DNA of 53,447 nucleotides from an uncultured Rhodobacterales bacterium (GCA_964509095.1 CAZDXI010000001.1:1-53447), one strand, 5' to 3'. Shown: positions 16,686 through 50,999, counted from the stretch's first letter. The notes: generated from the sequence alone by a model not told the origin. Program-made: numbers and translations.

Positions 16686-16689
16686 GTGT

Positions 16690-25449: not shown

Positions 25450-25452
25450 ACC

Positions 25453-32103: not shown

Positions 32104-32104
32104 A

Positions 32105-34893: not shown

Positions 34894-35104
34894 AAATGTG
34901 TACCCAAAAAAACAAACGCGAAACTTAAATCGATATCCGTCCGGCGCAAATAACACCGGTCACAGAATGGGCTTAGACCTTCATGTTTTTCAGGTTTTGA
35001 CCCAACACCATCACCCCATGCACAGAACTTTACATCCAACTTGGGCTGATGTCCCGTGCGATTTGCCTTACGGTAAACCCTGAACATAAAAATCCGCGAC
35101 AACC

Positions 35105-35120
35105 TGTGACATTTATCACA
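35105..35120. promoter_or_regulatory. CRP/FNR-family-type palindrome TGTGA-N6-TCACA
   Basis: TGTGAcatttaTCACA in an AT-rich divergent intergenic region. Confidence 0.55.
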
Positions 35121-35239
35121 AAATCGGCCTTTATGCTTCCGGTTTGTGTAAAGTTCATGCACAATTTCAACGATCAAAGCTGCGCTGCTATATTTTCAGA
35201 CCAACGTGGTTACATAGTTTTTTTATTTGGATTTCATGG

Positions 35240-35929: not shown

Positions 35930-35930
35930 C

Positions 35931-36818: not shown

Positions 36819-36822
36819 CGCG

Positions 36823-38055
36823 TCACTGCGTATCCACGCCGACCCGCAACTGGACTTCGAACACATCTCCCGGCAGCACCGCGTCATCGGGTCCCACCGG
36901 TAAAACGGAACTGCCGCCATCTGCGGTGGGTCGGCGTACCTGCATGTAAAGCTCCACGGGAACATCGACCGGCTGAACACCACTCAGTGCTGCCAAACCG
37001 ACCAGCATGCTTTCGCGCTTGGTGTCCAGTTCAATGCGGCGGCGCGTGTCCTGCAGTTGCCGCAGAACGTCATTCTCCCGGTCGTTGACCATCTGAAGCT
37101 GATCACGCTGGGTTTCCCCGATCCGCTGGCGGGCACGGAAAATCGCGGTGTTCAGATCCAGTTCCTCTGCGCTCAGGTCCAGCAGCGTACGTTCCGCGCT
37201 CAACACCCGGCTGGCTGGTACTGTGCCGCGTTCCACCAGAGTGCGCAGGTTTTCGGTTTGCTCCCGCGCACTTTCGATCTGGAGTCTCTGACCTTCAAGC
37301 TTGCCCTGCAAACCGGCCAATTCGGTCTCGTGCAGGGCAATCAGCGCTTCGTTGGATTGTGTACTGCGCACATAAGAGGCCAGCCGCGTTTCAAGGATGG
37401 ATCGCTCTTCCTGCTTGATAAGCTCCACGGCCTCCGGACCGTCTGGATGCGCTTGCAGATTGTGAAACGTGATTTCGGTTTGTTGTGTCAGTTCCGCTTC
37501 CAGCCGGGCCTCGCGCGCGCGCATGCGGACCAATTCCACCTGAACGCTCTGCAGGGAACTTATGTCGCGATAGATACTGGCCTCGTTTACGGAAGCATCG
37601 CGGGTGCGCAACGTGCCCCCCGCCAAGGCCAGCGCCTTGCTCGCGGTCAGCTGTGGGCGCCATGCATAGGCCCCGGGATTGTTCACATCACCGGCGATGT
37701 AAAACGGCCGGTAGGTCGAGATCTCCAGCGATACAACTGGCAACTGAAAGAGCCCCGCAGAGGTCTTCAGCGCTTCGGCGACGCTTTCGCTCAGGTCTTC
37801 GGGTGTGATCCCCACAGCCTGAATACGACCCACCACCGGCAGCGCAATGGCCCCGGAAACAGAGACTTTGTATTCCCCGGTGATGCCTTCCATGGGCACG
37901 TAAGAAGCACTGGCATCGTCCCAGGTCACCACCCGCAGGGAGACGACATCCTCTGGTCCCAGAAGGTAAGTCTGCGCCACAGCGGGCAGCGCACCCCAAA
38001 GCGCAAACATAAGCAGGCACGCCACCTGCAAGACTCTGTCGCACATGCGTGTCAT
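36823..38055 (-). CDS. exoF: Polysaccharide export protein, ExoF-like
   Basis: Signal peptide, YLLGPED, GAIALPVVG, YRPFYIAGDVNNPGAY, ALALAGG, coiled coil, C-terminal VLPGDV. Confidence 0.85.
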   Translation of the reverse strand: MTRMCDRVLQVACLLMFALWGALPAVAQTYLLGPEDVVSLRVVTWDDASASYVPMEGITGEYKVSVSGAIALPVVGRIQAVGITPEDLSESVAEALKTSAGLFQLPVVSLEISTYRPFYIAGDVNNPGAYAWRPQLTASKALALAGGTLRTRDASVNEASIYRDISSLQSVQVELVRMRAREARLEAELTQQTEITFHNLQAHPDGPEAVELIKQEERSILETRLASYVRSTQSNEALIALHETELAGLQGKLEGQRLQIESAREQTENLRTLVERGTVPASRVLSAERTLLDLSAEELDLNTAIFRARQRIGETQRDQLQMVNDRENDVLRQLQDTRRRIELDTKRESMLVGLAALSGVQPVDVPVELYMQVRRPTADGGSSVLPVGPDDAVLPGDVFEVQLRVGVDTQ

Positions 38056-40388
38056 GCAGAGGCCTTTCCGGTCTTTAGCACGTTCTCAAACCCGGCATAT
38101 TCGTATTTGCGTTCCATGCGGCGCTTCACCTGAGTCATGACCAAATAGACGTTCTCGGTATGGAGATCGCGCAACCGTTGAACGCAGGCTTCGATGGTTT
38201 GGCGTGGTGTTGCGTTCCAGCGTGATGCAACGACCACCGCTTCGGCATCGCGCATGAAGCTCAACGTGCCAGATGAAGACAGAACCGGAGGCGCATCAAT
38301 CACGATGTAGTCGTACGCCTCACCCAGCGTCTTCATCAGATTGGCTTTCCAGGCGTCCGTCAAAAGATCCGGGTCCATCCGGGTCGCGGCAGACAGGGAC
38401 AGTTTGTAAAACCCGGCACCTGTTTTTTTGATCTCGTCCAACGCAGGCAGTTCGGGCGAAGCTTTGGTTGAGACGATGAAGCTCGACGGCTTGCCCGTAG
38501 CGCTCACCAGCAGGACGGACTCTGCGCGCATTGCAAGTGCTTCAGCAAGCAAGAAGGCAACTGTTGAGCCCCCTTCCCCTGCGACGGCAGAAGTCACCAC
38601 GATGCTGCCATTTCGGCCTTCCAATATGTTGAGCAGGAACGAAGCAACGCCGTTGCTTTCCTGCGTCAACGGTGACTTGTCCCGCTTGCCGTTCGGTTTT
38701 GCCTGGTTCTCGCGCATTCGGGTGCGCAGCTGCCGTATCTTTCCGCCGCCAATCTGGGAGAAGCTGCCAATGACAGGCAGACCAGCCACCGCGCGCAATT
38801 GGCGCCCGGTTTTCACGTTGTTGTTCATGGCCTCAATCAGGATCGCAATGCCCAGACCAATGGCCAGTCCGGCAAGACCGGAGGCAGCCAGAATAAGCAA
38901 TGTTCTTGGTGAACTGGGTGAATTGGGCACCTCGGCATAGGACAACAGGCGCACGGTCGGCTGTTGCAAAGCCTTGTATTGGGCTGATTCCGTCGCGATG
39001 CTCAGGAATTCCTCATAGGCGATCCTGTTTGCATCCGCGATCCGCCGCAGCTTGCCAAGCTCCACCATGTTTCGGGTGCGTGACAGAACCGCCTCTTCGG
39101 ACTTCACCAGTTCTGTGTTGATGGACGCGGCGATGTTCTGTGCCACTTCCAACTGGGTTTCGTATTCAGCGATCAGCCGTGCCGTCTCGATCTCGATCTC
39201 TTGCGAGATGCGGTTGATCACAGCATCAATCGCAGACACCTGACTGGATTGAGCACCAAAGCGTTCCACCGCGCGGCTGCGTTCAATGCGCAGTTGGGAC
39301 AGCTCCGACCGCACGCTGACCAGAATCGGCGATGTCAGCACATCAGATGCGGCGATGGCCCCGTCACTCGACACGATTTCAATGACGTTTTCGTATTGCG
39401 CATAGGCCCTCACAACATCCGCCCGCGCTTCAATCAGACGTCGGTTCAGATCCTCGACCTGGCGGGACAGGCGATCCACGCTGAAGGCATTGACCCCCAT
39501 CTCGCGCTCCTGAAAATCCACGACCGCTGTTTCGGCCTCTTCCAGATTACGTCCCAACTCATCCACCCGGTCACTGAGAAGCTGAACCTGCTCCTCGATG
39601 GAATCCCCGCGAATATCGAGACTGAACCGTGTGTATTCTGTTGCCGCCGCATTCGCGACCAACGCTGCAATTTCAGGGTTGCCTGATTGCGCGGAAACGC
39701 CAATGACATAGCCATTGCCGCGTTGTGCAATCTGAATCATACCGCCAAGCCGATCGGCCGTGTCCCCGTATTGCAACAGATCCGCAGCCAGCGCCGTTGT
39801 CAGATCGCGCGATGTCCCATCGGAGGGCTCTGTCCCGGCGGTTTGTGTCGACGTGTCCTCTGTCTCGGCCGGGTTCTCTGCATCTGTTGATTGGGCTGGC
39901 TGGATCAGGCTCGAAACGAATCTCTTGGCACTGCGCAACAGCCGGACTGGCAGGATGGCAGGCTGCGGGGGTTCGATGAAAGGCGCGTCGCTTTCGGTCT
40001 CAAGTCGTTTGACGACCTCGATCATGAACGCCTTGGAACTCATGGTCGTGATTTCCTGCTGAACCAGTTGGCGGCTCAGCGGGACGCCTGTCAGCAAGTC
40101 GGCAATCGGTGTGCTTTGTTGCCGCTGGTCAATCAGCGTCAGTTCCGCAGTGGCAGAGTAACGCGGCTTCACCGTCGTCAGCATGGCGCCTGTCAACAAA
40201 AAGACCGTCCCTGCGATGAGCCCGATCAGGAACCAACGGCGCTTCAGGAACAGCACCACATCCGTAAGACTGATCACGGATTGCCGCGGCGTGGCATCCA
40301 ACGGATCCTCGACCATCAGGTCAAACATGCCGGGTTGTCTGTTCACAATTCCGCTCCACACAATCGAACGTCGGCTTTGGCCATACAA
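38052..40388 (-). CDS. exoP: Polysaccharide co-polymerase ExoP/Wzc (GumC) with degenerate kinase domain
   Basis: Two TMs flanking a coiled coil (PRYSATAEL; AEVPNSPSSPR); C-terminal BY-kinase-like domain with YDYIVIDAPP. Start 40388 (TTG) or 40328. Confidence 0.88.
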   Translation of the reverse strand: MYGQSRRSIVWSGIVNRQPGMFDLMVEDPLDATPRQSVISLTDVVLFLKRRWFLIGLIAGTVFLLTGAMLTTVKPRYSATAELTLIDQRQQSTPIADLLTGVPLSRQLVQQEITTMSSKAFMIEVVKRLETESDAPFIEPPQPAILPVRLLRSAKRFVSSLIQPAQSTDAENPAETEDTSTQTAGTEPSDGTSRDLTTALAADLLQYGDTADRLGGMIQIAQRGNGYVIGVSAQSGNPEIAALVANAAATEYTRFSLDIRGDSIEEQVQLLSDRVDELGRNLEEAETAVVDFQEREMGVNAFSVDRLSRQVEDLNRRLIEARADVVRAYAQYENVIEIVSSDGAIAASDVLTSPILVSVRSELSQLRIERSRAVERFGAQSSQVSAIDAVINRISQEIEIETARLIAEYETQLEVAQNIAASINTELVKSEEAVLSRTRNMVELGKLRRIADANRIAYEEFLSIATESAQYKALQQPTVRLLSYAEVPNSPSSPRTLLILAASGLAGLAIGLGIAILIEAMNNNVKTGRQLRAVAGLPVIGSFSQIGGGKIRQLRTRMRENQAKPNGKRDKSPLTQESNGVASFLLNILEGRNGSIVVTSAVAGEGGSTVAFLLAEALAMRAESVLLVSATGKPSSFIVSTKASPELPALDEIKKTGAGFYKLSLSAATRMDPDLLTDAWKANLMKTLGEAYDYIVIDAPPVLSSSGTLSFMRDAEAVVVASRWNATPRQTIEACVQRLRDLHTENVYLVMTQVKRRMERKYEYAGFENVLKTGKASA

Positions 40389-40459
40389 CTTGGCACCATG
40401 GCATGAATCCAGCCGTAATATACTCTATTATCGTTGAACATAGTCACTTTGCAGCCGAT

Positions 40460-41476
40460 TTAACACTGCATTCCTGTCCAGACGGTCGACAAATCCCGGT
40501 CCAGAAGCTTTGACAGGCCCGCATTTCGCGCCGATAGGTGCTGCTGCAGATAGGCTTTCGTGTCCTCACGCATCTCCGGCGGGCGGTCCGCTGTGAGAAT
40601 GCGGGAATTGACGTGCCTGAACCACCTGTAGTGCAGCTTCTTGTGCAGTTTTACCCAACCATCGCGGCTGCCATCCTTGGCCATATGCTGGCGGTATTTC
40701 TTGCGGACCAGATAGTTGCCCACCACATTGGACAGTCGCTGGATGTTCAGGTTTCCCGGGTATTTCGTCCGATTAAACCACGCCTTATCCGGATCGATCT
40801 GCATGGGCTTTGCCCCGATGAAGGCTGTGACGTCATCCACACAAGCCTGATTGTCCGCCCGGAAGTCTTCAAACAGGCAGACCTTGATCTGTTCGGGGCC
40901 GAACGTGTCCTGAAACCGCCGCAGACCCGCTAAGTAGCTGGAACCCAACAGGATATTCGGATAGTGCAGGATCGCCTGTTCGAACGTCTTCGTTGTGCGC
41001 CCGGTTTTGACCAGATGCCAGTACTGCGAATAGGCCCGCGACACCGGGTGGCGCAACATAAAGATCAGGCGCACATCCGGGATCAGGGCATGAATACGCG
41101 CCGGGGCCAGCTCTGACATCAAATAGGTGGTGGAATCTTCGCCCAGCAGCGCCGCAGACCCGCCTTCGGCAAACCGTTCTGCATACCAGTCGAGATTTTG
41201 CGTCTGGCTGGGGCGCGGATCAGGCCAGACCAGCGTATCCCCGTGCACATGCAGGAAATCGGGATGCGTGATCGGATCATCGGCATCAAAGAAGTGCACC
41301 TCATCGACGGGCAACGAGATATCGGCATGCTGATCCAGAATGAAATGCAAAGAGGTCGTCCCGCATTTGGGCGCACCTCCGATGATGAAATCAGGATACC
41401 GGCGCGACCCCGGTGCATTTGCCTGCGCAGACAGGCCACCTTCGCGAAAATCAGATTGATCCAAAACAAGCTCCAA
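40460..41476 (-). CDS. Sulfotransferase (Sulfotransfer_1; heparan-sulfate sulfotransferase-like motifs)
   Basis: PDFIIGGAPKCGTTSL, EVHFFD, LIFMLRHPVSRAYSQY. Confidence 0.9.
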   Translation of the reverse strand: MELVLDQSDFREGGLSAQANAPGSRRYPDFIIGGAPKCGTTSLHFILDQHADISLPVDEVHFFDADDPITHPDFLHVHGDTLVWPDPRPSQTQNLDWYAERFAEGGSAALLGEDSTTYLMSELAPARIHALIPDVRLIFMLRHPVSRAYSQYWHLVKTGRTTKTFEQAILHYPNILLGSSYLAGLRRFQDTFGPEQIKVCLFEDFRADNQACVDDVTAFIGAKPMQIDPDKAWFNRTKYPGNLNIQRLSNVVGNYLVRKKYRQHMAKDGSRDGWVKLHKKLHYRWFRHVNSRILTADRPPEMREDTKAYLQQHLSARNAGLSKLLDRDLSTVWTGMQC

Positions 41477-41752
41477 TCACAAAATCCGGTCGTCGGGGCA
41501 TACGCCTCCAGATCTCGTCCGGCATCACACTAAGAACATTCATAAAATCTGGAACTTTATACGACATTCTGCCTGTTGGGACAACCATATCGACGGCACA
41601 GGCCTGACAAAACTGACGCGCTCGGATCCAACAGATGCACAAAGCGGCCTTCGCGCAATGTTCGCGCCCCCGAGGTCAATCCGAAGTGGACAAACGCTGG
41701 CCAGATACGGATAGTCCGGGGTGCAAATACATTTGTTTAAACAGGTTTTAGA

Positions 41753-42940
41753 GTGACCCAGATTTCCGCGATCGTTCCGACGTTCAACCGAAAAGCTTAT
41801 CTGCTTCAGGCGCTGGAGTCGCTGCACGCCCAGACTCGCCCGGTGCACGAGATTATCGTGTGGGACGACGGGTCAACCGATGGCACCGAGGACACCATCC
41901 GCCCCCTTGTCGGGCCCGGTCTCATCTATCACCGCGCCGAGAACGCCGGAAAGTCCGCAGCGCTGAACAAGGCTATGACGTTGGCCAGCGGTGATTACAT
42001 CTGGATCTGTGACGATGATGACCTTGCCGTGCCGGACGCAGCCGAGCGTCTGGCGGAGGTTCTGGACCGGGACCCGACAGTCGGTGTGTCGGGCGGAGGT
42101 TATCACCGTTTTCGCGACACCGAAGCCGGGCATGATCTGTCCGGTCCGGGATATTGGCCTGATTTGAGCTCTGGCAGCCCAATGCGCCATCTTCTGGAAG
42201 ACATCTTCCTGTTTCAGAACGCTACTCTGGTGCGGCGCAAGTGTTATGATCAGGTGGGTCCGTTCCGCGAAGACCTCGCCCGCTCAATTGACTACGACAT
42301 GATCGCCCGGCTCGCGACGCGTTTTCCCGTGCATATGAGCGACGAGGTCGTCTTTTTGCAGCGCAAGCATGACGGCGACCGGGGTCCGGCCCATCAGCGA
42401 CACGCGGCGTCCAGCGTCGACAGTGTCTGGGCCGCGCAGGATCGGGTTGTCTTTGAAGGATTACGCACGCACATCCCGATCTCCCTGATGGCGGCGATGT
42501 ATGACGGCACATCCGAGGAAACGCAGCGCGCCGCTCACATCCAGCGCGCCTGTATCTTTGCCCGCCATGGTCTGTGGACTGATGCCTGTGACGATCTGGA
42601 CGCCGCAGCACATCTTGCAACTGACCTTGCGCTGGGCCCGGTCGAGACCGGGGCGTGCCGCAGGGCTGTCTCTGGCAAACATGGTGTAGGGTTGTCTGCA
42701 GATGATCTGCGCCGCCTGTCGGAACTCAAACGGGTGTCCCCTGTTGGGCGTCAGATCGTCCGCAGTCTGGGGCGGGGTCTTCTGTGGTCGCTGCGTCAGG
42801 GTGTGTCCGGCGGCGACGTGCGCCTTGTGACCCGGCTGGGTCGTATTCTGATGACAACAGGTGTTCAGAACACGGCGCGCGATGGCACGTCGCAAGTGCA
42901 GGAACGTCAGACCCTGCCTTTGTCGGCCTACGACTGGTGA
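41753..42940 (+). CDS. Glycosyltransferase family 2
   Basis: ISAIVPTFNR, WDDGSTD, NAGKSAALN, ICDDDD, SIDYD. Confidence 0.88.
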   Translation: MTQISAIVPTFNRKAYLLQALESLHAQTRPVHEIIVWDDGSTDGTEDTIRPLVGPGLIYHRAENAGKSAALNKAMTLASGDYIWICDDDDLAVPDAAERLAEVLDRDPTVGVSGGGYHRFRDTEAGHDLSGPGYWPDLSSGSPMRHLLEDIFLFQNATLVRRKCYDQVGPFREDLARSIDYDMIARLATRFPVHMSDEVVFLQRKHDGDRGPAHQRHAASSVDSVWAAQDRVVFEGLRTHIPISLMAAMYDGTSEETQRAAHIQRACIFARHGLWTDACDDLDAAAHLATDLALGPVETGACRRAVSGKHGVGLSADDLRRLSELKRVSPVGRQIVRSLGRGLLWSLRQGVSGGDVRLVTRLGRILMTTGVQNTARDGTSQVQERQTLPLSAYDW

Positions 42941-43923
42941 CGCCCCCCGGTCACGACCCTGCGGGAGCGCAGATATACCTGACCCAGCAGCTTGCCTGCC
43001 AAAGACAGCACCACGCTGGGTGGCGCCACAAACGCCCCGATCATGGAAGAGATGTCGCGCGCCTTGACCGCATCGATCAGGCGCCGCCAAGCCCATTCCT
43101 TGTGCACATCAATCCGATGCGCGCGCAGGGCAACCTTGTCCTGTGCCGACAGGTTCGGGTGGCGTGCCAGTGCCAGATCCGCAGTCACAATCGCCCCCAG
43201 ATCAGCCGTACTATGTTGCGAACTGAGAGAGTCCCCGCGATACACCGCGAAATAGCCTCTTGGATCGACCAGACGAAAGGCCGCCCCGGCGGCTAGTGCT
43301 TCGGCATACAGCAGATAATCCTCGGCCAGCCGCAGATCGGGATCATAGGACAGCCCGGACTCTTCCAGAAACTGCCGCCGCATCAGCGGTTTTACGAACC
43401 CCAGTTCGCCACGTCCTCCGTACCGATCTCGTCGGTTTCCTGTCACGAAGGCATCGAAGGTGACGTCCATCCGACCAAAATCAGTGGCGCTCCACAAACG
43501 GTGATCCGTGGCGTGCAGATCCGTGTCGCGAACCCGGTACAAATCATCCGCCAGCAGATCGAGCCCATCGGCCTCGGCTTCTTCTACAAGCCGTGCAATG
43601 CGGTCCGGGGCCATGTGATCATCTGCATCCAGCACGGCGATCCATGGGGTTGAGCTTTCCGCGATCCCACGATTGCGCGCCGCCGCCGGACCGCCATTTT
43701 TTGGCTGCCGAAACACGCGAACCGCCGGGTCCTGCTGGCTGAACTCTTCGGCCAGCGCATGGGTGCCATCATCCGAACAATCATCCACAACGATGATCTC
43801 GACCGGGACTGTCTGGGCCTGAGCAGACCGGATGGCCCGTGCCAGCGTATCCGACGCGCGATAGGCCGCGATCACAATGGCCGCAACCGGTTCAGGCGCC
43901 TTAGACCCGTGCGCCGCATCCAT
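42928..43923 (-). CDS. exoU: GT2 glucosyltransferase, ExoU-like
   Basis: IVIAAYRA, GGPAAARN, VLDADD, RGELGFVKPL, LRLAEDY, SLSSQHSTADL. Confidence 0.78.
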   Translation of the reverse strand: MDAAHGSKAPEPVAAIVIAAYRASDTLARAIRSAQAQTVPVEIIVVDDCSDDGTHALAEEFSQQDPAVRVFRQPKNGGPAAARNRGIAESSTPWIAVLDADDHMAPDRIARLVEEAEADGLDLLADDLYRVRDTDLHATDHRLWSATDFGRMDVTFDAFVTGNRRDRYGGRGELGFVKPLMRRQFLEESGLSYDPDLRLAEDYLLYAEALAAGAAFRLVDPRGYFAVYRGDSLSSQHSTADLGAIVTADLALARHPNLSAQDKVALRAHRIDVHKEWAWRRLIDAVKARDISSMIGAFVAPPSVVLSLAGKLLGQVYLRSRRVVTGGRHQS

Positions 43924-43926
43924 CGC

Positions 43927-44673
43927 TTACAGGCTCATCTTCTTGAAGATGCGTTCCGGGATGGCACAGATAATCCGCATCACCAGCCACCAGATCGGCT
44001 TCACATAGATCACGTTGCGCCCAGTCTCGACGCCCTTGAAAATCGCGTCTGCCACCTGTTCAGGTTCAGCCGTCAGGCGTTTGGGCAGGTCCATGCCTTC
44101 GGTCATGCGCGTTGCGACAAACCCGGGTTTCACGGTCAAAACATGCACATTCCGGCTGGCCAGCCGATTGCGCAGACCCGACAGGAACGCCGTGAACCCC
44201 GCCTTGGCAGAGCCATAGACATAGTTCGTGGCCCGGCCCCGGTCTCCGGCAACCGAACTTACCCCGACAAGGGCGCCCTGCCCGGCTTCGGCCATCTGGT
44301 TGGCAAACAATCCCAGAATCAGCGCGGGTCCTTCGTAGTTGGACCGCATGACCAGAGCAGCGGCGGCCGGGTCCTGTTCACTTCCGTCCTGCTCGCCCAT
44401 TGCGCCCACGACACAGACAACGACCGAAGGGGCGGGATCCAGACCAGCCACAAAATCGGCCATCGCGCCCGTGTCCAGAACATCAAACTCCGCCAGATCG
44501 ACAGAGACCTCATGGCGCAAGGCGATGTCCGCGCGATCCGGTTCCAGATCCGCAACCGACCGCGCCGCAAGCACGACGGATGCACCCGCCTTGGCAAATC
44601 GGCGGGCAATGGCCTGCCCGATATCTGATCGACCTCCCAGGATCAAAACAGTGTCAGATGAGGAGATCGTCAT
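43927..44673 (-). CDS. dprE2: SDR oxidoreductase, DprE2-like (polyprenylphosphoryl-2-keto-pentose reductase)
   Basis: LILGGRSDIG, SSVAGDRGRATNYVYGSAKAG, VKPGFVATRMT; directly downstream of the DprE1-like gene. Confidence 0.82.
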   Translation of the reverse strand: MTISSSDTVLILGGRSDIGQAIARRFAKAGASVVLAARSVADLEPDRADIALRHEVSVDLAEFDVLDTGAMADFVAGLDPAPSVVVCVVGAMGEQDGSEQDPAAAALVMRSNYEGPALILGLFANQMAEAGQGALVGVSSVAGDRGRATNYVYGSAKAGFTAFLSGLRNRLASRNVHVLTVKPGFVATRMTEGMDLPKRLTAEPEQVADAIFKGVETGRNVIYVKPIWWLVMRIICAIPERIFKKMSL

Positions 44674-46013
44674 AAGCGCAGTCTTTCGGATTGTGAGGAA
44701 GCAAAGGTCTGATCAAGGCTTTTGTCACGACGCATCTGTGCGAAATCGCCTGCGCGCGGGTCTGCCTTGTGCAAAGTCGTGGCTGCCAGTCTTGCGTCCT
44801 TGGCAAGGTAAAACCGCCCGCCATGTGCCACCGTGATGGCATCCAGACGGTCCAGCAACGCCAGAGTTTGTGCATTGGCCGGGAAGTCCAGCGCCAGCGT
44901 GTAGCCTTCCATGGGAAAGGAAAACCGGCTGTCCTGCGCGCCAAAACGCTTGAGCACCGCAAGGAAAGACCCTTGCCCAGCCTCTGAGGTCGCGTTCAGC
45001 AAGTCTGTCAGCCCCGCTTTGGACTGTGCCAGCGGCAGCACACACTGAAACTGAAGAAAACCGCGGCGCCCATAGATCCGGTTCCAGCCCAGGATCGCAT
45101 CCAGCGGATAAAAATACCGATCCCAATCCACGAGCGACTCTCCCGCGCTGCGCACGCCTTTGCGCCAGTAAAGGGCGTTGAAGGCCTTGACCGTCAGGCG
45201 GTTCAGCGCCAGCGCCGGGAAATCGATGGGGATGGTTTTCTTGCCGGGGCGCGGTGCCTGTAACGGGGTTGCGCGGTGTTCGGATGGCAGATCATCGGCG
45301 CGCGCATGTTCGCCCAGCATGATCAATGACCGCCCCAGATCAGCGCCCCCTGCCAGACAATCGATCCAAGCTACGGAATAGGTTGCGTCTTGTGCGGCTT
45401 CGAAGGCAGCCATTGCGGCATCCAGATTGGGGGCGACAACGGTCTCTTGCCGGATCCAAGCGCTTTCAACCGGGCGCAGTCGAAGCGCGGCACGCAGGAT
45501 CACCCCGGTCAGCCCCATGCCGCCGACGGTCCAGCCGAACAACTCCGGGGTTTCGGACGGGCTGACGCGCGTCACCTGCCCATCCGTACCCATCAGGTCT
45601 ATCCAGTCCACAAAACTGCCAAAGGAGCCATCCACGTGATGGTTCTTGCCATGCACATCTGCCGCAATCGCCCCTCCGAGGGAGACGAATTTCGTGCCCG
45701 GTGTCACATAGGGAAACCAGCCGCGCGGCAGGAACGTATCGATAATGTCTCCCAGCAGCACGCCGGCTTCGGCGACCAATTGACCGGTTTCAGCATCAAA
45801 AGACAGGAAGCGGTTGAAGGCCCGCATGTCCAGCGTCAGAGCCGCGCCCATGGCGCTGTCCCCGTAGGCGCGCCCATTCCCTCGGGCTACGATGCCTCCG
45901 GTTGGCATGTTGGTCTGCACATGGCGCCGGATGTCCGCTTCGCTGCGGGGGGCTCCCAGTGGTCCCGGACGCCGGGGATAGCGTCCCCAACCAGTCAGTT
46001 CGGTACTGTGCAT
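44670..46013 (-). CDS. dprE1: FAD-binding oxidoreductase, DprE1-like (polyprenylphosphoryl-ribose 2'-oxidase)
   Basis: LTGWGR, ARGNGRAYGDSA, PGTKFVSLGGAIAADVHGKNHH, YSVAWID, WNRIYG, FLQFQ, GGRFYLAKD. ATG 46013 overlaps the GtrA stop. Confidence 0.85.
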   Translation of the reverse strand: MHSTELTGWGRYPRRPGPLGAPRSEADIRRHVQTNMPTGGIVARGNGRAYGDSAMGAALTLDMRAFNRFLSFDAETGQLVAEAGVLLGDIIDTFLPRGWFPYVTPGTKFVSLGGAIAADVHGKNHHVDGSFGSFVDWIDLMGTDGQVTRVSPSETPELFGWTVGGMGLTGVILRAALRLRPVESAWIRQETVVAPNLDAAMAAFEAAQDATYSVAWIDCLAGGADLGRSLIMLGEHARADDLPSEHRATPLQAPRPGKKTIPIDFPALALNRLTVKAFNALYWRKGVRSAGESLVDWDRYFYPLDAILGWNRIYGRRGFLQFQCVLPLAQSKAGLTDLLNATSEAGQGSFLAVLKRFGAQDSRFSFPMEGYTLALDFPANAQTLALLDRLDAITVAHGGRFYLAKDARLAATTLHKADPRAGDFAQMRRDKSLDQTFASSQSERLRL

Positions 46014-46426
46014 CAGGCGGCCTTTGCGGTGACGGCATCTGTAAAGACATAGCGACGGTCCAACTGGTACTTGACCGTATAGCCCACGGCCAGCCCCAGA
46101 ACGGCCCCCAGTTCGCGCATGGCATCCGTGCCCCAGACGATCCAAAACGCGGTCTCTGTCACCCAGAAGATCAACGTGGTCACAACGCCCATGAGCGAAT
46201 AGAGAAAGAACTTCCGACTGTGTTGCGCGACCCCTGTGCTGTGGTCTTCAAAGATCCAGCGCTTGTCCAGAATGTACTTCAGCACCAAGCCGACCGCTGT
46301 GCCCATCACCACGGCTATCGCAAAGCCGATGGCCTCACTGTTGATCGCAAGGACCAGCCTTTGCATGGCCAGATTGGCAATTGTTGCCAGAACGGCAAAC
46401 AGAACATAGCGGGTCAATCGGGTCAC
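46013..46426 (-). CDS. GtrA family membrane protein (putative lipid-linked sugar translocase)
   Basis: 137 aa, 4 TMs, KYILDKRWIF and KYQLDRRYVF repeats. Confidence 0.88.
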   Translation of the reverse strand: MTRLTRYVLFAVLATIANLAMQRLVLAINSEAIGFAIAVVMGTAVGLVLKYILDKRWIFEDHSTGVAQHSRKFFLYSLMGVVTTLIFWVTETAFWIVWGTDAMRELGAVLGLAVGYTVKYQLDRRYVFTDAVTAKAA

Positions 46427-47874
46427 AGGAGAGATCCGGATACAGCACAGCCAAAGATGATCACCGCACAGATCAGCGATATCCGGTCCTTGGCCGCAAA
46501 GACCACAGGGTCGTCATGCATCCAGCCGCGATGCGAAATCATCACCATGCGGCTGAGCCAGAACAACAACACAAGGCAGATCCCCCAGAGTGCCGCCGGG
46601 GTGGTATAGAGCGTCGCCACCGCTTCTGTGTTCAGATACAGCGCCATCACGAGCACAGAGACATAGCCCGACGACACCGCCATGTTGGTGACAATGGGCA
46701 AATCTGTGTTTCGATAGCTGCGACCATGGGCCTGATCATTGCCGCTTGCCCCTCCGGCGACAAGCTCGGCCTGTCGTTTGACCGCCGCCAGTGCAAAGAA
46801 AAAGAAGATCGAAAAGGCCAGAAGCCAGACCGACAAGGTCAGCCCGGTGGCCACCCCTCCGGCGATGATACGCAGGGTGTAAAGCCCCGCGAGCGTGCAG
46901 ATATCGATCACCAGCAGCCGTTTCAAAAAGAACGAATAGGCCGTGGTGATCGCGTAATACAGCGCCATGACCCCGATAAACATCGGACCCAGAAAGGCCG
47001 CCAAACCAAAGCCGACAACCAGAAGTCCCGGTGCCAGAACCGTACCCCAAGCCAGTGGAAGGGTCCCGTTTGCAAACGGGCGCAGGCGCTTTCTGGGATG
47101 GGCGCGGTCGGCGGCAAGATCCAGCAGGTCATTCAGCAAATAGACAGAGGAGGCGATCAGACTGAACGCGACAAAAGCCAGCAGTGCTTGCGCCAGTGTC
47201 GCAACTCCGAACTGGTGCGCGGCAAGCAGCGGCAGGAAGACCAGAATGTTCTTCAACCACTGATGCGGACGCATGGCCTTCAGCAAAGGATTGCGGCGTC
47301 CATCGCGTGTCTTGAGATGTTCAACCACTGCGGCTTGAGTATCGACCTTTGCCGCGAGGGCTTCGGGCACATCCACCGTGACTGCCTTGGCCGCATCGCG
47401 CCAGATGGCCAGATCCGCTTCGGCATCCCCGACATAGGCGAACCTGCCGATGCCATAGGTCTCTTGCAGGTATTGGGCCTTGTTAGGCCCTTTCAGATTG
47501 TGCGTTCCGTCCGAGCCTCGCACATCATCAAACAACTGCAGATGGTCCGCAATGCGCTGCACGATGCGCTGGTTCGATGCAGAAACCAGTGCGGTCCGGC
47601 CGCCCTTGCTGCGCCAGTCCCGAACGTACTGGAGGATATCCTCGTTATAGGGCAGCAGGTCGGGATCAACCGGGCCCAGCTCTTCGAGCTTCTGTTTGAA
47701 CACCGCCTTGCCACTGCGCAACGCTTGCAAGGCCGGGATGATGTTGAGCCAACGCACCGACACCGCGGACCAGAATGTCTCGAACAGCATATCTGTGCGC
47801 ACCAACGTGTCGTCCAGATCAACAACAAGGACGACATCCTCAGCGCTCAGATTAAAACTATGTGCATCATCCAT
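46423..47874 (-). CDS. HAD-like phosphatase fused to UbiA-family polyprenyl-phosphate phosphoribosyltransferase
   Basis: N-terminal VVDLDDTL, VSAS, YVGD..AD. C-terminal MRPHQWLKN, YLLNDLLDLAADRAHPRKRLRP, AYSFFLK, KRQAE, HDDPVVFA. Confidence 0.88.
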   Translation of the reverse strand: MDDAHSFNLSAEDVVLVVDLDDTLVRTDMLFETFWSAVSVRWLNIIPALQALRSGKAVFKQKLEELGPVDPDLLPYNEDILQYVRDWRSKGGRTALVSASNQRIVQRIADHLQLFDDVRGSDGTHNLKGPNKAQYLQETYGIGRFAYVGDAEADLAIWRDAAKAVTVDVPEALAAKVDTQAAVVEHLKTRDGRRNPLLKAMRPHQWLKNILVFLPLLAAHQFGVATLAQALLAFVAFSLIASSVYLLNDLLDLAADRAHPRKRLRPFANGTLPLAWGTVLAPGLLVVGFGLAAFLGPMFIGVMALYYAITTAYSFFLKRLLVIDICTLAGLYTLRIIAGGVATGLTLSVWLLAFSIFFFFALAAVKRQAELVAGGASGNDQAHGRSYRNTDLPIVTNMAVSSGYVSVLVMALYLNTEAVATLYTTPAALWGICLVLLFWLSRMVMISHRGWMHDDPVVFAAKDRISLICAVIIFGCAVSGSLL

Positions 47875-48059
47875 CGTAAAGTCTCACCAATAATTATGGG
47901 AACTGAAAATTCGGGTCTTAAAAAAGGTACAAAATCCTTATGGGTTATTGTGCACAAACCGGAAATTTCGTTCAAGTCTTGCGCGGGTTTGCCCCGTCGT
48001 ATCGCCCGGCCAACGTGCGACCTGCGCCAAAATTGCAGGTTCCATCCTTGTGCAGCGTG

Positions 48060-49790
48060 TCAAATAACCCCCCAATCCTGCATGAATACAGCAAAAGCGG
48101 CAATCACGCCATTGGCAGTCACATGTGCCACAATTGCATCGCACAACCGTCCTGACGGGCGCAGCACCAATGCAGCAAAGACCAGACCGGCCAGACCTGC
48201 GGCAATCCAGCGATCATGCAACAGGGCAAAGGCAACTGTGCTGACACAGATCGCCAGAACGGCCCCCGCCACAGAACGTGCGGCCCCCAGTTTCTCCAGC
48301 AGGTAGGAGCGAAAGAACAGCTCTTCGACCACAGGGACAAGCACTGTCGTGCCCAGCACGCGCGTGACAACCCAGAGCACCAGCAAACCGGGTGCCAAAG
48401 TTTGAAGGGCGGCTGTCAGTGGTCCATAAGCCCCCGTGGTCGCTGTCATCAACCACAGCACACCGATCACACCCCCGGCAGCCACCGACAGCGGGTCAAC
48501 GCGCCAGAGCATCTGTTTCAGATGCGCGCGAAACACCCATAGCGACATGGCAACAAGCACAAAGCGCGCCGGATAGATCAGTGCAGGCGTTTGGGAAAAC
48601 GTGGACGCAAGCAGGGCTGAAAACATGAACACTGCAAATGGCAAAATGCGGGCCGCATTCCAGTCATCCCAAAACGCCGGGAGGGTCGGGGCTGGCGTAG
48701 GTGCCAAGCCGGGAGCCGAGGACTGGGAGACCACAGCGCTGGCGTCTGGACCGGCGGGGCGCTGGAACCACGACACCCGGTGCACCACAAGCACAAGAAA
48801 GATCGCGAGGATGGAAAACATCAGCCACCCCGCATGAGAATGAAACGCCCCTACTGCCAGGTCTGGCGACACATTCAGCCCGATCCAGATCAGCACCATG
48901 ATGCGGACCGTGTTCAGCCACCAAGACAGGAACAACCCGACCGGCAACACGACAAGCAAAACCCGGGCTGGCAGCAGATGACGCCAGAACAGGACCACAT
49001 AGCCCAGAAGAAAAGTTGTGATCAGCGCAAGGCCTTCAATGCCTGAACACCTCTCATCGATCTTGATTACGAACACGTCAGTACCCAGCAATGCCTCGGC
49101 CGGATTAGATTGCAGATCAAAGCCGAAGGCGCTCGCGCTCCATGCGACAGTGTCAAAGGTCAGAGTTTTGAACAGGTCCGAATGCCATAGCGGAAACACC
49201 ATCCGGCCAAGTTCCGGAAGACTGAGGCCGAAGACCAGCACCACCCACAAGCCGGGCCCTGCCTGTTTCAAAACCCGTCCCCAAACAGGCAGCGGGGCAA
49301 TCAGATGCAGCGCCACATAGCACAGCAAAGCCACCCCAACGGACCAGGAGATCAGACTGACCATCAAAAGACCGGGGGCCGGAAATGCCGTGTGATAGGC
49401 CATCGGAACCGCAGCCAGTAGTGCGCCCAGCCCTGCCAGCAACAGCATGGGTTTGAACGAACGCGGGGCTGCCAGCGCTGCCTTCACTGGCGCAAACAGA
49501 TCCGGACGGCTTAGCAACGCGATCCCAGTCAACACGATCACCGCCAAAGCACGTTGCACGATATCCAGAGAGAAGCGGCAAAACTTCCAAGACGCCACCT
49601 CTGAACACCGCTGGATGGACATTGGCGCAAACGACAATCCGATGACCGTCAGCGCGAAAACGTAAAACAAGGCGATCCACATCAGACGGCGCCACACCAT
49701 CGGAACCGGGAGGCTATGGGCACCGGTCCTGTCCGGACCATTATCGCGTACTAAAAAGTTAAACGCGGAAAGACTGCGTAAAAATGGCAT
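48060..49790 (-). CDS. xrtE: Exosortase E / CAAX (CPBP) protease fusion, VPEID-CTERM system type
   Basis: Exosortase triad CSGIEG, LNTVRI, FHSHAGW, followed by CPBP motifs VPVVEELFFR, FALLH, AHVTANG. Start uncertain (49700-49802). Confidence 0.85.
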   Translation of the reverse strand: MPFLRSLSAFNFLVRDNGPDRTGAHSLPVPMVWRRLMWIALFYVFALTVIGLSFAPMSIQRCSEVASWKFCRFSLDIVQRALAVIVLTGIALLSRPDLFAPVKAALAAPRSFKPMLLLAGLGALLAAVPMAYHTAFPAPGLLMVSLISWSVGVALLCYVALHLIAPLPVWGRVLKQAGPGLWVVLVFGLSLPELGRMVFPLWHSDLFKTLTFDTVAWSASAFGFDLQSNPAEALLGTDVFVIKIDERCSGIEGLALITTFLLGYVVLFWRHLLPARVLLVVLPVGLFLSWWLNTVRIMVLIWIGLNVSPDLAVGAFHSHAGWLMFSILAIFLVLVVHRVSWFQRPAGPDASAVVSQSSAPGLAPTPAPTLPAFWDDWNAARILPFAVFMFSALLASTFSQTPALIYPARFVLVAMSLWVFRAHLKQMLWRVDPLSVAAGGVIGVLWLMTATTGAYGPLTAALQTLAPGLLVLWVVTRVLGTTVLVPVVEELFFRSYLLEKLGAARSVAGAVLAICVSTVAFALLHDRWIAAGLAGLVFAALVLRPSGRLCDAIVAHVTANGVIAAFAVFMQDWGVI

Positions 49791-49967
49791 TGGCTGAAGC
49801 AAAACAAATGTTAAAAGTCACAAGAAATTATGCAAAAATCATAGGTCTGTCCGTTGAAGACAGCAAGAAATTACGACCTCAAATGCGGCGCTTGCATCTG
49901 AACAGACTGTTTCTGCCGCAGAACGCACTCGCATGAGTGGAATTATTAGGATGTGTGACACAAACCG

Positions 49968-50999
49968 ATGTCAGAAAGCGTTGAAGACAGCCATATGACC
50001 GGTCCGGGACCATTTCAGCCTGAGCACGTTCTTATTGCCATCCCGGCCCTGAACGAGGCCGCGCATATCGAATCCTGTATCCGGTCTCTTCTTGGGGGGG
50101 ACCCGGACTTGAAAGAGGTCCGGCTTGTCGTCGCTGACGGGGGCAGTCAGGATAACACGGCTGACATTGTGCGCGCTCTGACAGGTGACTTTCCCAATAT
50201 CCGGCTGATCGACAACCCGCAGAAGTACCAGTCTGCCGGTGTGAACGCGGTCGTGCGGGACTGCGCAGAAGACAGCCATATCTTTCTGGTCCGATGTGAC
50301 GCGCATTCGGTCTATCCACCCGGCTATGTGCGTCAGATCATCGACACCTTTCAGGCCATCCCAGACGCGGCCTCTGTGGCGACGGTGATGGATGCCACCG
50401 GAGACGCCTGCTTTCAAAGGGCCTCTGCTTGGATCGTGGATACGCCCTTTGGGTCGGGCGGTTCGGCCCATCGTGGCGGGTCCCGGTCGGGCTGGGTGGA
50501 TCATGCGCACCATGCGGGGTTCCGACTCGACTGGTTCCGGCGCATTGGCGGATATGATCCGGGCTTCACGCATAACGAAGATGCCGAATACGACCATCGG
50601 CTTGGCCTCGCAGGGGGGCGGGTCTGGCTCGCAACCGAGATCCGCATGGATTACCAGATGCGCCCCACTCCGCGGGGGCTGATCAAGCAATACTGGTCCT
50701 ATGGTAAGGGACGCGCACGGACGCTGCTCAAGCATCGCATGCGGCCCCGCCTTCGCCAACTTATCCCCGTGCTGAACCTTTTGCTGATCGCCTTTTGCCT
50801 TATGCTATCCGGGCTTTTGCCTGTGTTGCTGCTTTGGCCGTTTCTGTATCTGCTGGCCCTCATCGCCATATCCGTGCAATCGGTGCTGTCCATGCGCTCG
50901 CTCTGTGGCCTTTGGGCTGGTGTGGCGCTGGCCATCATTCACAACGCTTGGGCGCTGGGCTTCCTGAGCCAGCTGGGTCGGTGGCTTTTTCGGCGCTGA
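49968..50999 (+). CDS. exoA: GT2 glucosyltransferase ExoA
   Basis: IPALNEAAHI, ADGGSQD, QSAGVN, RCDAHSVYP, GSGGSAHR, DHAHH, HNEDAEYD, RLRQLIP. Alternative start 49995. Confidence 0.88.
   Translation: MSESVEDSHMTGPGPFQPEHVLIAIPALNEAAHIESCIRSLLGGDPDLKEVRLVVADGGSQDNTADIVRALTGDFPNIRLIDNPQKYQSAGVNAVVRDCAEDSHIFLVRCDAHSVYPPGYVRQIIDTFQAIPDAASVATVMDATGDACFQRASAWIVDTPFGSGGSAHRGGSRSGWVDHAHHAGFRLDWFRRIGGYDPGFTHNEDAEYDHRLGLAGGRVWLATEIRMDYQMRPTPRGLIKQYWSYGKGRARTLLKHRMRPRLRQLIPVLNLLLIAFCLMLSGLLPVLLLWPFLYLLALIAISVQSVLSMRSLCGLWAGVALAIIHNAWALGFLSQLGRWLFRR

What the first reader, a model, noticed from the sequence alone, without database searches (positions are those of the whole stretch)
43927..47874. Mycobacterial-type lipid-linked arabinofuranose donor pathway inside a succinoglycan-like EPS locus
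Seen: four translationally coupled genes (HAD-UbiA, GtrA, DprE1-like, DprE2-like) followed 3 bp later by exoU-like, plus two AftB-like GT-C genes elsewhere in the locus. Known: in Corynebacteriales, UbiA/DprE1/DprE2 make decaprenylphosphoryl-D-arabinofuranose for Aft/Emb transferases. Related genes serve Azorhizobium Nod-factor arabinosylation and Pseudomonas Pa5196 pilin glycosylation. Rhizobial succinoglycan has no such step. Inference: this organism makes polyprenyl-P-Araf, flips it, and decorates the EPS or surface proteins in the periplasm. That would be a donor-plus-transferase system I do not know to be characterised in this context. A ribofuranose product cannot be excluded.
Basis: partly seen in the sequence, partly recalled or inferred. 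Interest (0 to 1): 0.9.

Follow-up and report, generated by a model that had tools for sequence, protein, structure and literature searches.

The report
Arabinose-decorating module in roseobacter exopolysaccharide locus
A marine roseobacter-type bacterium has four coupled genes, matching the rhizobial arabinosylation genes noeCNHO in order and sequence, inside a polysaccharide gene cluster that also holds two membrane transferases related to mycobacterial AftB; together they likely make a lipid-linked D-arabinofuranose and would attach it to the exopolysaccharide outside the cytoplasm, a variant of a system type published in 2024.

Summary
HAD-UbiA, GtrA, DprE1-like and DprE2-like genes overlap by 1-4 bp, and an exoU-like gene starts 3 bp later. 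They match Rhizobium IRBG74 noeC-noeN-noeH-noeO in order, at 47-59% identity, and the DprE1 falls in one clade with NoeH. The donor is therefore most likely polyprenyl-P-D-arabinofuranose. This donor-flippase-GT-C design is a published system type (Kelly et al. 2024) and is common: DprE1 relatives occur in 120 of 300 family genomes. The scan has already noted the type in 46 findings, one in another roseobacter EPS locus. The less ordinary part is the transferase. Both GT-Cs match only AftB among solved structures by profile and keep all six AftB donor-site residues, but miss the AftB family model. All 18 family genomes and all 8 class genomes with such a GT-C have DprE1. All 19 closest GT-C2 loci are this EPS cluster. 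One genome has both GT-Cs and no detectable donor genes. The locus is succinoglycan-like, sulfotransferase-rich, and lacks exoV and exoH hits. The acceptor, the anomer (beta if AftB-like) and flipping are untested. Verdict: new variant of a known kind, interest 0.35.

The parts
46423..47874 (-). Polyprenyl-phosphoribose synthase with fused N-terminal HAD phosphatase (PRP-PPPRS, C. youngae ORF15 type; NoeC-like), 483 aa
   Evidence: Pfam UbiA+HAD; 8j8j E 1.7e-34; D19, N248, D249, D252, D256, R367, E370 follow the spacing of ORF15 D18, N247, D248, D251, D255, R366, E369; 59% to IRBG74 NoeC over the UbiA domain
46013..46426 (-). GtrA-family small membrane protein, candidate flippase of the lipid-linked donor (NoeN orthologue), 137 aa
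   Evidence: PF04138 and NF037976 over cut-off; 47% to the IRBG74 gene in the noeN position; flippase activity is not shown for any such protein according to PMC11127046
44670..46013 (-). DprE1/NoeH-type FAD oxidase, predicted 2'-oxidase of polyprenyl-P-ribose, 447 aa
   Evidence: PDB DprE1 E 6e-84; 12 of the 14 active-site contact residues tabled in PMC6128881 kept, S228 and N385 differ, and C387 is Ala as in NoeH; 57% to NoeH, shared clade with SH-aLRT 99
43927..44673 (-). DprE2/NoeO-type SDR, predicted 2'-keto reductase, 248 aa
   Evidence: Best PDB hit DprE2 E 1.8e-31, next hit 1.9e-18; N112, S139-S140, Y153xxxK157 shared with NoeO and Rhodococcus DprE2; 57% to NoeO
42928..43923 (-). ExoU-like GT2, 3 bp after the DprE2-like stop; probably the same transcript
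   Evidence: Reciprocal best match to S. meliloti ExoU, 37%; same neighbour in L180, L182, L202, L220 and, with the epimerases missing, L203
20309..21970 (+). GT-C2: AftB-related GT-C membrane glycosyltransferase, 553 aa; best candidate for arabinosylating the EPS
   Evidence: Profile A2 matches only AftB, E 9e-19; D43, T73, E150, R193, T247, R332 align to AftB D62, T91, E172, R221, T274, R372; GT-C fold, model pLDDT 94; 19 of the 19 closest GTDB loci are this EPS cluster
3947..5563 (-). GT-C1: second AftB-related GT-C, 538 aa from ATG 5563 (26% identical to GT-C2); acceptor less certain
   Evidence: Profile A1 matches only AftB, E 1.1e-20; Foldseek top hit AftB E 5.2e-9; same six residues kept; some orthologues lie outside EPS loci
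193..50999 (.). Wzx/Wzy-type exopolysaccharide cluster that holds the module. Genes: ExoL-like 193-1353, Wzy 2606-3829, Wzx 11289-12794, ExoY 13132-13998, three Pfam sulfotransferases (14084-15001, 32105-32911, 40460-41476), formyltransferase, PIG-L deacetylase, AT3-SGNH acyltransferase, ExoO/ExoM-like GT2s, GH16 ExoK-like, Wza 36823-38055, Wzc 38052-40388, ExoA 49968-50999
   Evidence: Pfam/NCBIfam; BLAST against the S. meliloti exo region; the window begins at the first base of its contig, so the cluster may continue

Best explanation
The four coupled genes likely make undecaprenyl-phosphate-linked beta-D-arabinofuranose from PRPP and would hand it across the inner membrane to the two AftB-related GT-C enzymes of the same cluster, which are predicted to add Araf side groups to the cluster's Wzy-built, probably sulfated exopolysaccharide in the periplasm. 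Steps: (1) the UbiA domain transfers ribose-5-P from PRPP to polyprenyl-P; (2) the fused HAD domain removes the 5-phosphate (steps 1-2 shown for the Citrobacter homologue, inferred here); (3) the DprE1-like oxidase and DprE2-like reductase invert C2 to give Araf (shown in mycobacteria, inferred here); (4) GtrA flips the donor (not shown in any system); (5) GT-C2, and perhaps GT-C1, transfer Araf to the lipid-linked repeat or growing chain before Wzc/Wza export (inferred from gene context). What the sequence shows directly is the genes, their coupling, their conserved residues and their co-occurrence. I put the Araf donor at about 0.88, the EPS as GT-C2 acceptor at about 0.7, and a beta (retaining, AftB-like) linkage at about 0.45.
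For: Donor: same gene order as IRBG74 noeC-noeN-noeH-noeO, 59/47/57/57% identical, an operon tied to Nod-factor arabinosylation, where deleting noeP abolishes and deleting noeN reduces it (PMC5080398 passages). DprE1 shares a clade with NoeH, SH-aLRT 99, quick tree of 83 rows. Catalytic motifs are intact. No GalE/ORF13-type epimerase, the xylofuranose route, is among the 41 window ORFs scanned. Transferase: both profiles match only AftB. The six AftB donor-site residues are kept in 117-120 of 120 rows of A1 and 98-110 of 110 rows of A2. Link of donor and transferase: 18 of 18 family genomes with an AftB-like hit have DprE1, against 120 of 300 overall. In an independent class sample it is 8 of 8 against 60 of 400. 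Link to EPS: 19 of the 19 closest GT-C2 loci carry this EPS cluster. In 7 of them GT-C2 directly follows the cassette, and 18 of the 19 genomes have a DprE1 relative. Of 7 family genomes with a close Wzy, 5 have PPPRS and GT-C2 in the cluster, and 2 (G290, G298) lack PPPRS, DprE1, DprE2 and AftB-like hits together.
Against: No biochemical, expression or glycan data exist for this organism. G337 (locus L118) has intact GT-C1 and GT-C2 in the full cluster but no PPPRS, DprE1 or DprE2 hit in its draft genome. The cassette is not EPS-specific: only 4 of the 32 close-type loci in the family sample sit in such a cluster. DprE1 and DprE2 score below the curated cut-offs, though NoeH and NoeO do too. 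The GT-Cs miss the AftB model NF041481, and by structural Z-score AftB is not ahead of OST, Pmt or ArnT enzymes. Several orthologous clusters have PPPRS-GtrA without the epimerases (L110, L119, L203). Co-occurrence counts include related genomes, and only the top 3-4 GT-C candidates per genome were scored.
Confidence: 0.6

Rival explanations
1. The donor is polyprenyl-P-Araf, but the main acceptor is not the EPS: it is a surface protein (exosortase-sorted proteins, Flp/Tad pilin or the large PKD/LamG protein), as in Pseudomonas pilin arabinosylation. This is more plausible for GT-C1 than for GT-C2.
For: An exosortase E gene lies directly upstream of the cassette (48060-49802), and about 15 VPLPA-CTERM-type ORFs are visible in the genome (my count from the list). 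GT-C1 overlaps the stop of the 1830-aa PKD/LamG gene and sits next to it in L115, L118 and L232. Seven GT-C1-like hits in the family sample lie in genomes with no close Wzy, and the five contexts annotated hold no EPS cluster. The other, commoner DprE1 type of this family sits beside Tad pilus genes (18 of 28 loci).
Against: Exosortase E was seen near the cluster in only one other locus (L104; none at E 1e-20 among the fetched loci). The PKD and G8 proteins show no N-terminal hydrophobic signal, so they may never meet a periplasmic enzyme. GT-C2 was never found away from the EPS cluster among its 19 closest loci.
Confidence: 0.17
2. The transferred sugar is ribofuranose, wholly or in part: the GT-Cs use polyprenyl-P-Ribf, and the epimerase pair is dispensable or only partly converts the pool, like the Citrobacter O1/O2 switch.
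For: Orthologous clusters in L110, L119 and the Leisingera plasmid L203 have PPPRS-GtrA with no DprE1/DprE2 between. Citrobacter ORF12 accepts more than one pentose donor.
Against: In this window both epimerase genes are intact and coupled. The genomes of L110 and L119 each have one PPPRS (in the EPS cluster) and one DprE1 elsewhere, so the full pathway is still present. AftB-like GT-Cs track DprE1 in 26 of 26 sampled genomes. The Leisingera chromosome could not be searched.
Confidence: 0.1
3. The donor is Araf but goes to another envelope glycan or lipid (LPS, periplasmic glucan, a separate arabinan), through these or other GT-Cs; the cassette merely resides in the EPS cluster.
For: 28 of 32 close-type cassettes lie outside such EPS clusters, some beside GT87 or other membrane proteins. 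The genome has one further PMT_2-type GT-C on contig C8. A marine alphaproteobacterium, Devosia submarina, makes a stand-alone alpha-D-arabinan (abstract).
Against: The cassette is coupled to the exoU-like gene here and in four relatives, and directly precedes GT-C2 in 7 of 19 loci. No GT87 was found in this genome (69% complete).
Confidence: 0.08
4. The cassette and the GT-Cs are functionally unlinked or silent passengers, or the oxidoreductase pair acts on an unrelated substrate.
For: G337 keeps both GT-Cs without detectable donor genes. No DprE1 relative was found in 10 same-genus genomes.
Against: All ORFs are intact with conserved catalytic residues. Order and coupling are conserved across many genera. 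GC content (0.57-0.62) matches the cluster and the genome (0.578). The enzymes group with NoeH and DprE1/DprE2, not with other oxidoreductases.
Confidence: 0.05

Closest known systems
Three-component extracytoplasmic pentofuranosylation systems (Citrobacter youngae O1/O2 ORF15-ORF14-ORF12 +/- ORF13; Kelly et al. 2024, PMC11127046)
   Same: HAD-fused polyprenyl-phosphoribose synthase with the same motif spacing, a small flippase candidate, a GT-C, and auxiliary epimerase genes inside a polysaccharide locus. The paper already predicts DprE1/E2 versions that give Araf and lists loci with several GT-Cs.
   Different: GtrA-type instead of ORF14-type transporter; DprE1/DprE2 instead of the GalE-like ORF13; two AftB-related GT-Cs (GT136/ORF12 was not compared directly); a Wzy-type EPS cluster instead of an ABC-type O antigen. 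The paper found no beta-linked Araf side chains other than AftB's.
Rhizobial Nod-factor arabinosylation operon noeC(N)HOP (Rhizobium sp. IRBG74, Azorhizobium caulinodans)
   Same: Same four genes in the same order, 59/47/57/57% identical; DprE1 in one clade with NoeH.
   Different: NoeC lacks the HAD domain. The transferase NoeP (401 aa) shows no similarity to either GT-C. The acceptor there is a lipo-chitooligosaccharide signal.
Mycobacterial/corynebacterial DPA pathway (Rv3806c, Rv3807c, DprE1, DprE2, Rv3789) with AftB (terminal beta-1,2-arabinofuranosyltransferase)
   Same: Homologous synthase, oxidase and reductase; both GT-Cs keep the six AftB donor-site residues and have the GT-C fold.
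   Different: Phosphatase is fused; the carrier is presumably undecaprenol (inferred); the GT-Cs are 538-553 aa against 669, about 20% identical in structural alignment, miss NF041481 and lack the AftB-specific membrane beta-sheet in the models. No other Aft/Emb-type gene was recognised in the window, so the alpha-arabinan acceptor of AftB is not expected.
Sinorhizobium meliloti succinoglycan (exo) cluster
   Same: Best matches to ExoY 49%, ExoM 47%, ExoO 42%, ExoA 40%, ExoU 37%, ExoL 34% (partial), ExoK 31%, ExoF 29%, ExoT 29%, ExoQ 28%, ExoP 22%.
   Different: No ExoV, ExoH or ExoX hit and no reciprocal ExoW; three sulfotransferases, a formyltransferase, a deacetylase, a GMC oxidoreductase, the Araf module and large secreted proteins are extra. 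The S. meliloti region fetched has no PPPRS, DprE or GT-C hit.
Pseudomonas Pa5196/PA7 D-Araf pilin glycosylation (donor genes plus TfpW)
   Same: Gram-negative use of a lipid-linked D-Araf donor and a GT-C (from PMC11127046 text and search listings).
   Different: Acceptor is pilin, product alpha-1,5-Araf, phosphatase separate. TfpW was not compared with the GT-Cs here.

Membership tests
Three-component pentofuranosylation system (Kelly 2024) | Polyprenyl-phosphoribose synthase (UbiA fold) with phosphatase, catalytic motifs intact | tested here: met
   matched to ORF15 by motif and spacing, not by direct alignment
Three-component pentofuranosylation system (Kelly 2024) | Small MATE- or SMR/GtrA-type transporter gene in the locus | tested here: met
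   GtrA family over cut-off; the paper's supplement accepts either type
Three-component pentofuranosylation system (Kelly 2024) | GT-C-fold transferase with catalytic Asp after TM1 in the locus | tested here: met
   Two genes; models pLDDT 96 and 94, GT-C matches Z about 20; DD motif
Three-component pentofuranosylation system (Kelly 2024) | DprE1/DprE2 pair (Araf) rather than ORF13-type epimerase (Xylf) | tested here: met
   no GalE-type gene among the 41 ORFs scanned
Three-component pentofuranosylation system (Kelly 2024) | Lipid-linked pentose formed and pentofuranose present on the glycan | not testable with these tools
   Needs membrane assay and glycan NMR
GT136 (C. youngae ORF12) | Sequence similarity to ORF12 | not tested
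AftB (GT89, recalled family number) | Donor-site residues D62, T91, E172, R221, T274, R372 | tested here: met
   All six in both proteins, read from profile alignments to 9dlf
AftB (GT89, recalled family number) | Score over the cut-off of the curated AftB model NF041481 | tested here: not met
   No hit at E 1e-4 for either window protein; two distant homologues score 26-34 bits against a cut-off of 1050
AftB (GT89, recalled family number) | TM3 and TM10 split into helix plus strand, forming a small membrane beta-sheet | tested here: not met
   Feature from PMC12041299 section 8; DSSP of both predicted models shows helices only there; models, not solved structures
AftB (GT89, recalled family number) | Closest fold is AftB | tested here: inconclusive
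   Foldseek ranks AftB first for GT-C1; VIA Z 20.5 and 19.4 are tied with or below Pmt, ArnT and OST, although AftB has the highest identity (20%)
AftB (GT89, recalled family number) | Retaining transfer giving terminal beta-(1,2)-Araf on alpha-arabinan | not testable with these tools
   Needs assay and NMR
noeCNHOP Nod-factor arabinosylation operon | noeC-noeN-noeH-noeO order and orthology | tested here: met
noeCNHOP Nod-factor arabinosylation operon | NoeP transferase following noeO | tested here: not met
   The next gene is an ExoU-like GT2; NoeP has no hit to the window proteins or to profiles A1/A2
Succinoglycan (exo) cluster | Core ExoY/A/L/M/O/U/Q/T/P/F homologues | tested here: met
   (ExoL and ExoP of the reference were picked by position, as the record leaves them unannotated)
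Succinoglycan (exo) cluster | ExoH (succinyl), ExoV (pyruvyl) and ExoW | tested here: inconclusive
   Not found in the window or genome, but the genome is 69% complete and the cluster reaches a contig end

The most novel reading that the evidence does not exclude
Roseobacters carry a mobile EPS cluster in which a widespread, unstudied family of AftB-related, retaining GT-C enzymes caps a sulfated succinoglycan-like polymer with beta-D-arabinofuranose, the terminal sugar of mycobacterial arabinan. It would be the first beta-Araf side chain made by a Gram-negative three-component system. Natural variants with, without and with split epimerase genes would switch the decoration on, off or to ribose.
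Probability: 0.3. Interest if true: 0.6.

Novelty: new variant of a known kind. Interest (0 to 1): 0.35.

Why it matters
If true, it gives a function to a family of unannotated membrane proteins (699 and 313 database hits), and predicts D-Araf on a marine bacterial exopolysaccharide whose structure I found no report of. It would also supply non-pathogenic relatives of AftB, described in PMC12041299 as the single structural example of a retaining GT-C, for testing what makes a GT-C retain or invert. Cultured strains with and without the module exist, so the test is direct. The donor pathway itself is published and common, which caps the interest.

Tried and rejected
Single-sequence PDB search with GT-C1 found nothing at E<=1; only profiles reach AftB. 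Pfam and NCBIfam give no family for either GT-C, and the Atlas returned only 'hypothetical protein' clusters and one with 13% PMT_2 for a homologue. The promoter scan gave 2 sites against 2.5 expected by chance, so the site at 47921-47893 ahead of the cassette is no evidence. No RNA holder was listed for the stretch, and no reads were laid. The careful tree did not finish; the quick tree is quoted, with duplicate sequences and loci L002-L020 left out. No GT-C tree was built, for lack of a root. No complex prediction was run. A recent GC-distinct insertion was considered and rejected: cassette GC matches the genome. The xylofuranose route was rejected (no ORF13-type gene). The idea that the GT-Cs are NoeP homologues was rejected. 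Yangia sp. ND199 EPS (PMC7892980, passages and section 17) is reported as Glc/Fru/Gal. It was calibrated with those three standards only and the paper analysed a related strain's genome, so it does not test the claim. Literature: 10 searches found no paper on this cluster or on AftB homologues in Alphaproteobacteria (searches returned none). The library lacks most subscription journals, so this is weak. Figures S11-S12 of Kelly et al. were seen as legends only. The DprE1 mechanism paper I first wanted was not held, so active-site residues come from an inhibitor-contact table. The 544-aa ORF at 23681-25315 stayed unidentified. Hypergeometric p-values (3e-8, 1.7e-7) ignore kinship and are not relied on.

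Full report
Observation. The window is the whole first contig of a 69%-complete genome, whose closest named relatives by these genes are roseobacter-group Rhodobacterales. On the minus strand lie a 483-aa HAD+UbiA protein (47874-46423), a 137-aa GtrA protein (46426-46013), a 447-aa FAD oxidoreductase (46013-44670) and a 248-aa SDR (44673-43927). A GT2 starts 3 bp later. The junctions are GTGA, TGATG, ATGA and TAA-GCG-ATG.

Identity of the donor genes. The FAD protein's nine best PDB sequences are all DprE1 (E 6e-84 to 8e-78), and the next family is at 8.5e-8. It keeps 12 of the 14 active-site contact residues tabled in PMC6128881 (passages). S228 and N385 differ and C387 is Ala; NoeH differs from the mycobacterial enzyme at the same three places. 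The SDR's best PDB match is DprE2. The UbiA domain matches only the mycobacterial decaprenyl-phosphate phosphoribosyltransferase. Its D19, N248, D249, D252, D256, R367 and E370 repeat, one residue later, the mutated positions of Citrobacter ORF15. The nearest studied relatives are not mycobacterial. The symbiosis plasmid of Rhizobium sp. IRBG74 carries UbiA-GtrA-FAD-SDR-hypothetical, which I equate with noeC-noeN-noeH-noeO-noeP of PMC5080398 (passages). The window proteins are 59, 47, 57 and 57% identical to the first four, against 39 and 33% for Rhodococcus DprE1 and DprE2. In a quick tree of 83 DprE1 relatives the window protein and NoeH share a 36-member clade with SH-aLRT 99. D-arabinofuranose is the sugar attributed to that operon. 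No GalE-type epimerase, the route to xylofuranose, is among the 41 ORFs scanned.

The two GT-C genes. GT-C1 (5563-3947) and GT-C2 (20309-21970) each have about 10 hydrophobic segments, are 26% identical and hit no Pfam or NCBIfam family. Profiles of 120 and 110 homologues (ten shorter hits left out) each match one PDB sequence, AftB, at E 1.1e-20 and 9e-19. AftB's catalytic D62 and donor contacts T91, E172, R221, T274 and R372 (PMC12041299, passages and sections 8-9) align with conserved residues in both proteins. They are kept in 117-120 of 120 and 98-110 of 110 rows. The models are confident (pLDDT 96 and 94) and have the GT-C fold, with AftB the top Foldseek hit for GT-C1. Against full membership: neither hits the AftB model NF041481. 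AftB's Z-scores (20.5, 19.4) do not exceed those of Pmt, ArnT or OST enzymes. The small membrane beta-sheet described as distinctive of AftB is absent from both models. They are AftB-related, not AftB. NoeP is unrelated to them.

Do donor and transferase belong together? In 300 family genomes, DprE1 relatives occur in 120 and AftB-like proteins in 18; all 18 are among the 120. In 400 genomes drawn across the class the numbers are 60 and 8, and all 8 are among the 60 (one of the 60, G360, is flagged unpublished). Kinship inflates these counts, and only the top 3-4 candidates per genome were scored. A GTDB scan with the GT-C2 profile kept 79 loci. The 19 closest (44-62% identity) all carry the same EPS cluster; several are near-duplicate species. 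In 5 the order is PPPRS-GtrA-DprE1-DprE2-GT-C2 and in 2 it is PPPRS-GtrA-GT-C2. Eighteen of the 19 genomes have a DprE1 relative and 17 a PPPRS. Seven family genomes have a close Wzy (E<1e-60). Five have PPPRS and GT-C2 in the cluster. G290, read over about 79 kb, has the cluster without any of the module, and G298, whose contig ends at Wzy, likewise gives no hit for PPPRS, DprE1, DprE2 or GT-C. The clear exception is G337 (L118): both GT-Cs are intact and no donor gene was found in the draft. Its close relative G335 keeps the donor cassette about 270 kb away, beside a third AftB-like gene, so loss or an assembly gap is possible but not shown.

How common, and how specific. The family has two cassette types. 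Thirty-one of 300 genomes have the close type (53-71% identity). I read all 32 such loci: 30 have GtrA, and only 4 lie in this kind of EPS cluster. Of the 89 genomes with the distant type I read 28: 25 have an LPG-synthase-type membrane protein and 18 lie next to Tad pilus genes. Two genomes with epimerase-less EPS cassettes (G328, G329) have their only PPPRS in the EPS cluster and their only DprE1, of the distant type, elsewhere, which fits one shared donor pool. A Leisingera plasmid has PPPRS-GtrA-exoU-like, the window's order with the epimerase pair missing.

The polymer. Against the S. meliloti exo region the window has best matches to ExoY, A, L, M, O, U, K, F, P, Q, T and a weak ExoZ-like acyltransferase. 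The genome gives no hit for ExoV, ExoH or ExoX, and none reciprocal for ExoW. It adds three Pfam sulfotransferases, a formyltransferase, a deacetylase and a GMC oxidoreductase. I infer a Gal/Glc-initiated, Wzy-polymerised, probably sulfated EPS: related to succinoglycan in its core, not succinoglycan itself.

Mechanism. Most likely (0.6): PRPP plus undecaprenyl-P gives lipid-ribose-5-P, the HAD domain removes the phosphate, the DprE1/DprE2 pair inverts C2, GtrA flips the donor, and GT-C2 (perhaps GT-C1) adds Araf to the EPS in the periplasm. The genes, motifs and co-occurrence are shown. Every chemical step is inferred from homologues, and flipping is unproven even in the model systems. Rivals: a protein acceptor (0.17), which fits GT-C1 better because its orthologues also occur outside EPS clusters and it travels with a large PKD/LamG protein; ribofuranose (0.10); another envelope glycan (0.08); no functional link (0.05).

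Comparison and novelty. Kelly et al. 2024 (PMC11127046; parts 1-6 of 8 of the text, supplement part 4 of 10 with figure legends only) define this system type. They show the HAD-fused synthase and a GT-C at work, predict DprE1/E2-dependent Araf versions and list loci with several GT-Cs. The window meets every genetic criterion. This scan has 46 earlier notes holding 'DprE1' and 'arabinofuranose', and one on the same module in another roseobacter EPS locus; these are unchecked notes and not support. What differs from the published cases is the transferase family and the acceptor. The paper reports no beta-linked Araf side chain other than AftB's product. If these enzymes retain like AftB, the product would be new for a Gram-negative system; I give that whole reading 0.3. 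My ten literature searches found no study of this cluster, within a library that lacks most subscription journals. The Pseudomonas TfpW work was seen only as search listings.

Verdict. Real, well-formed and correctly read as a lipid-linked arabinofuranose donor plus transferases. It is a new variant of a known, common kind of system; interest 0.35, or 0.6 if beta-Araf on the EPS is shown.

Noticed in passing
L213:8579-9001 (IRBG74 symbiosis plasmid): The gene in the noeN position is a GtrA-family membrane protein, not the phosphatase proposed for NoeN in PMC5080398; partial loss of arabinosylation in the noeN mutant would fit a partly redundant flippase. NoeC lacks a HAD domain, so the phosphatase of that pathway is unaccounted for.
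   Followed up: partly
L053-L080 (28 of 89 family genomes with the distant DprE1 type): A second cassette type, LPG-synthase-type flippase-DprE1-DprE2 often with a convergent PPPRS, sits beside Tad/Flp pilus genes in 18 of 28 loci read. It suggests common Araf glycosylation of Flp pili or another envelope target in this family; no transferase was identified.
   Followed up: partly
L110:7877-11518, L119:8190-11600, L203:30712-33583: Orthologous EPS clusters with PPPRS-GtrA but no DprE1/DprE2; in two genomes the epimerase pair is elsewhere and is the only copy. Natural test cases for Araf against Ribf.
   Followed up: partly
L118, L233-L237 (G337): Complete EPS cluster with two intact AftB-related GT-Cs but no donor gene detected in the draft genome.
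   Followed up: partly
window 48060-49802 (-): Exosortase E/CAAX protease fusion (TIGR04162 over cut-off) directly upstream of the cassette, with a second copy on contig C22. About 15 VPLPA-CTERM-type ORFs were seen, and no convincing VPEID-CTERM one, in the list.
   Followed up: partly
window 5547-11039 (-) and 25453-29328 (-): Two large proteins without an evident signal peptide: 1830 aa LamG/GSDH/PKD/Ig, overlapping the GT-C1 start by 17 bp, and 1291 aa G8/CEMIP-type beta-helix/LamG. Both recur in orthologous clusters; possibly EPS-binding or EPS-processing proteins.
   Followed up: no
window 15019-17859 (-): Formyltransferase, PIG-L deacetylase and a GT4-like gene in a row: a possible deacetylate-then-formylate modification of an amino sugar. 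The first two are missing from some orthologous clusters (L103, L201).
   Followed up: no
window 23681-25315 (-): 544-aa soluble ORF with no Pfam or NCBIfam family and no match at E 1e-20 among the fetched loci; by eye it resembles asparagine-synthase-like proteins (recalled, untested). It replaces the Wzy that follows the GMC gene in several relatives.
   Followed up: partly
window 35144-35929 (+): ORF conserved in orthologous clusters (64-72%) with no family hit; by eye a fourth sulfotransferase (recalled motif, untested).
   Followed up: no
L032:11460-15833 and ten similar loci: In 9-11 of the 32 close-type cassettes the neighbours are three conserved proteins (about 490, 336 and 575 aa) with no Pfam or NCBIfam family, often with a Sel1-repeat gene: an unexplained third context for this donor cassette.
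   Followed up: no
L215:11173-14351 (Rhizobium leguminosarum plasmid): The same four-gene cassette followed by two hypothetical proteins (519 and 540 aa) unrelated to the GT-Cs here; 34 Rhizobium plasmid records have a DprE1 relative.
   Followed up: no
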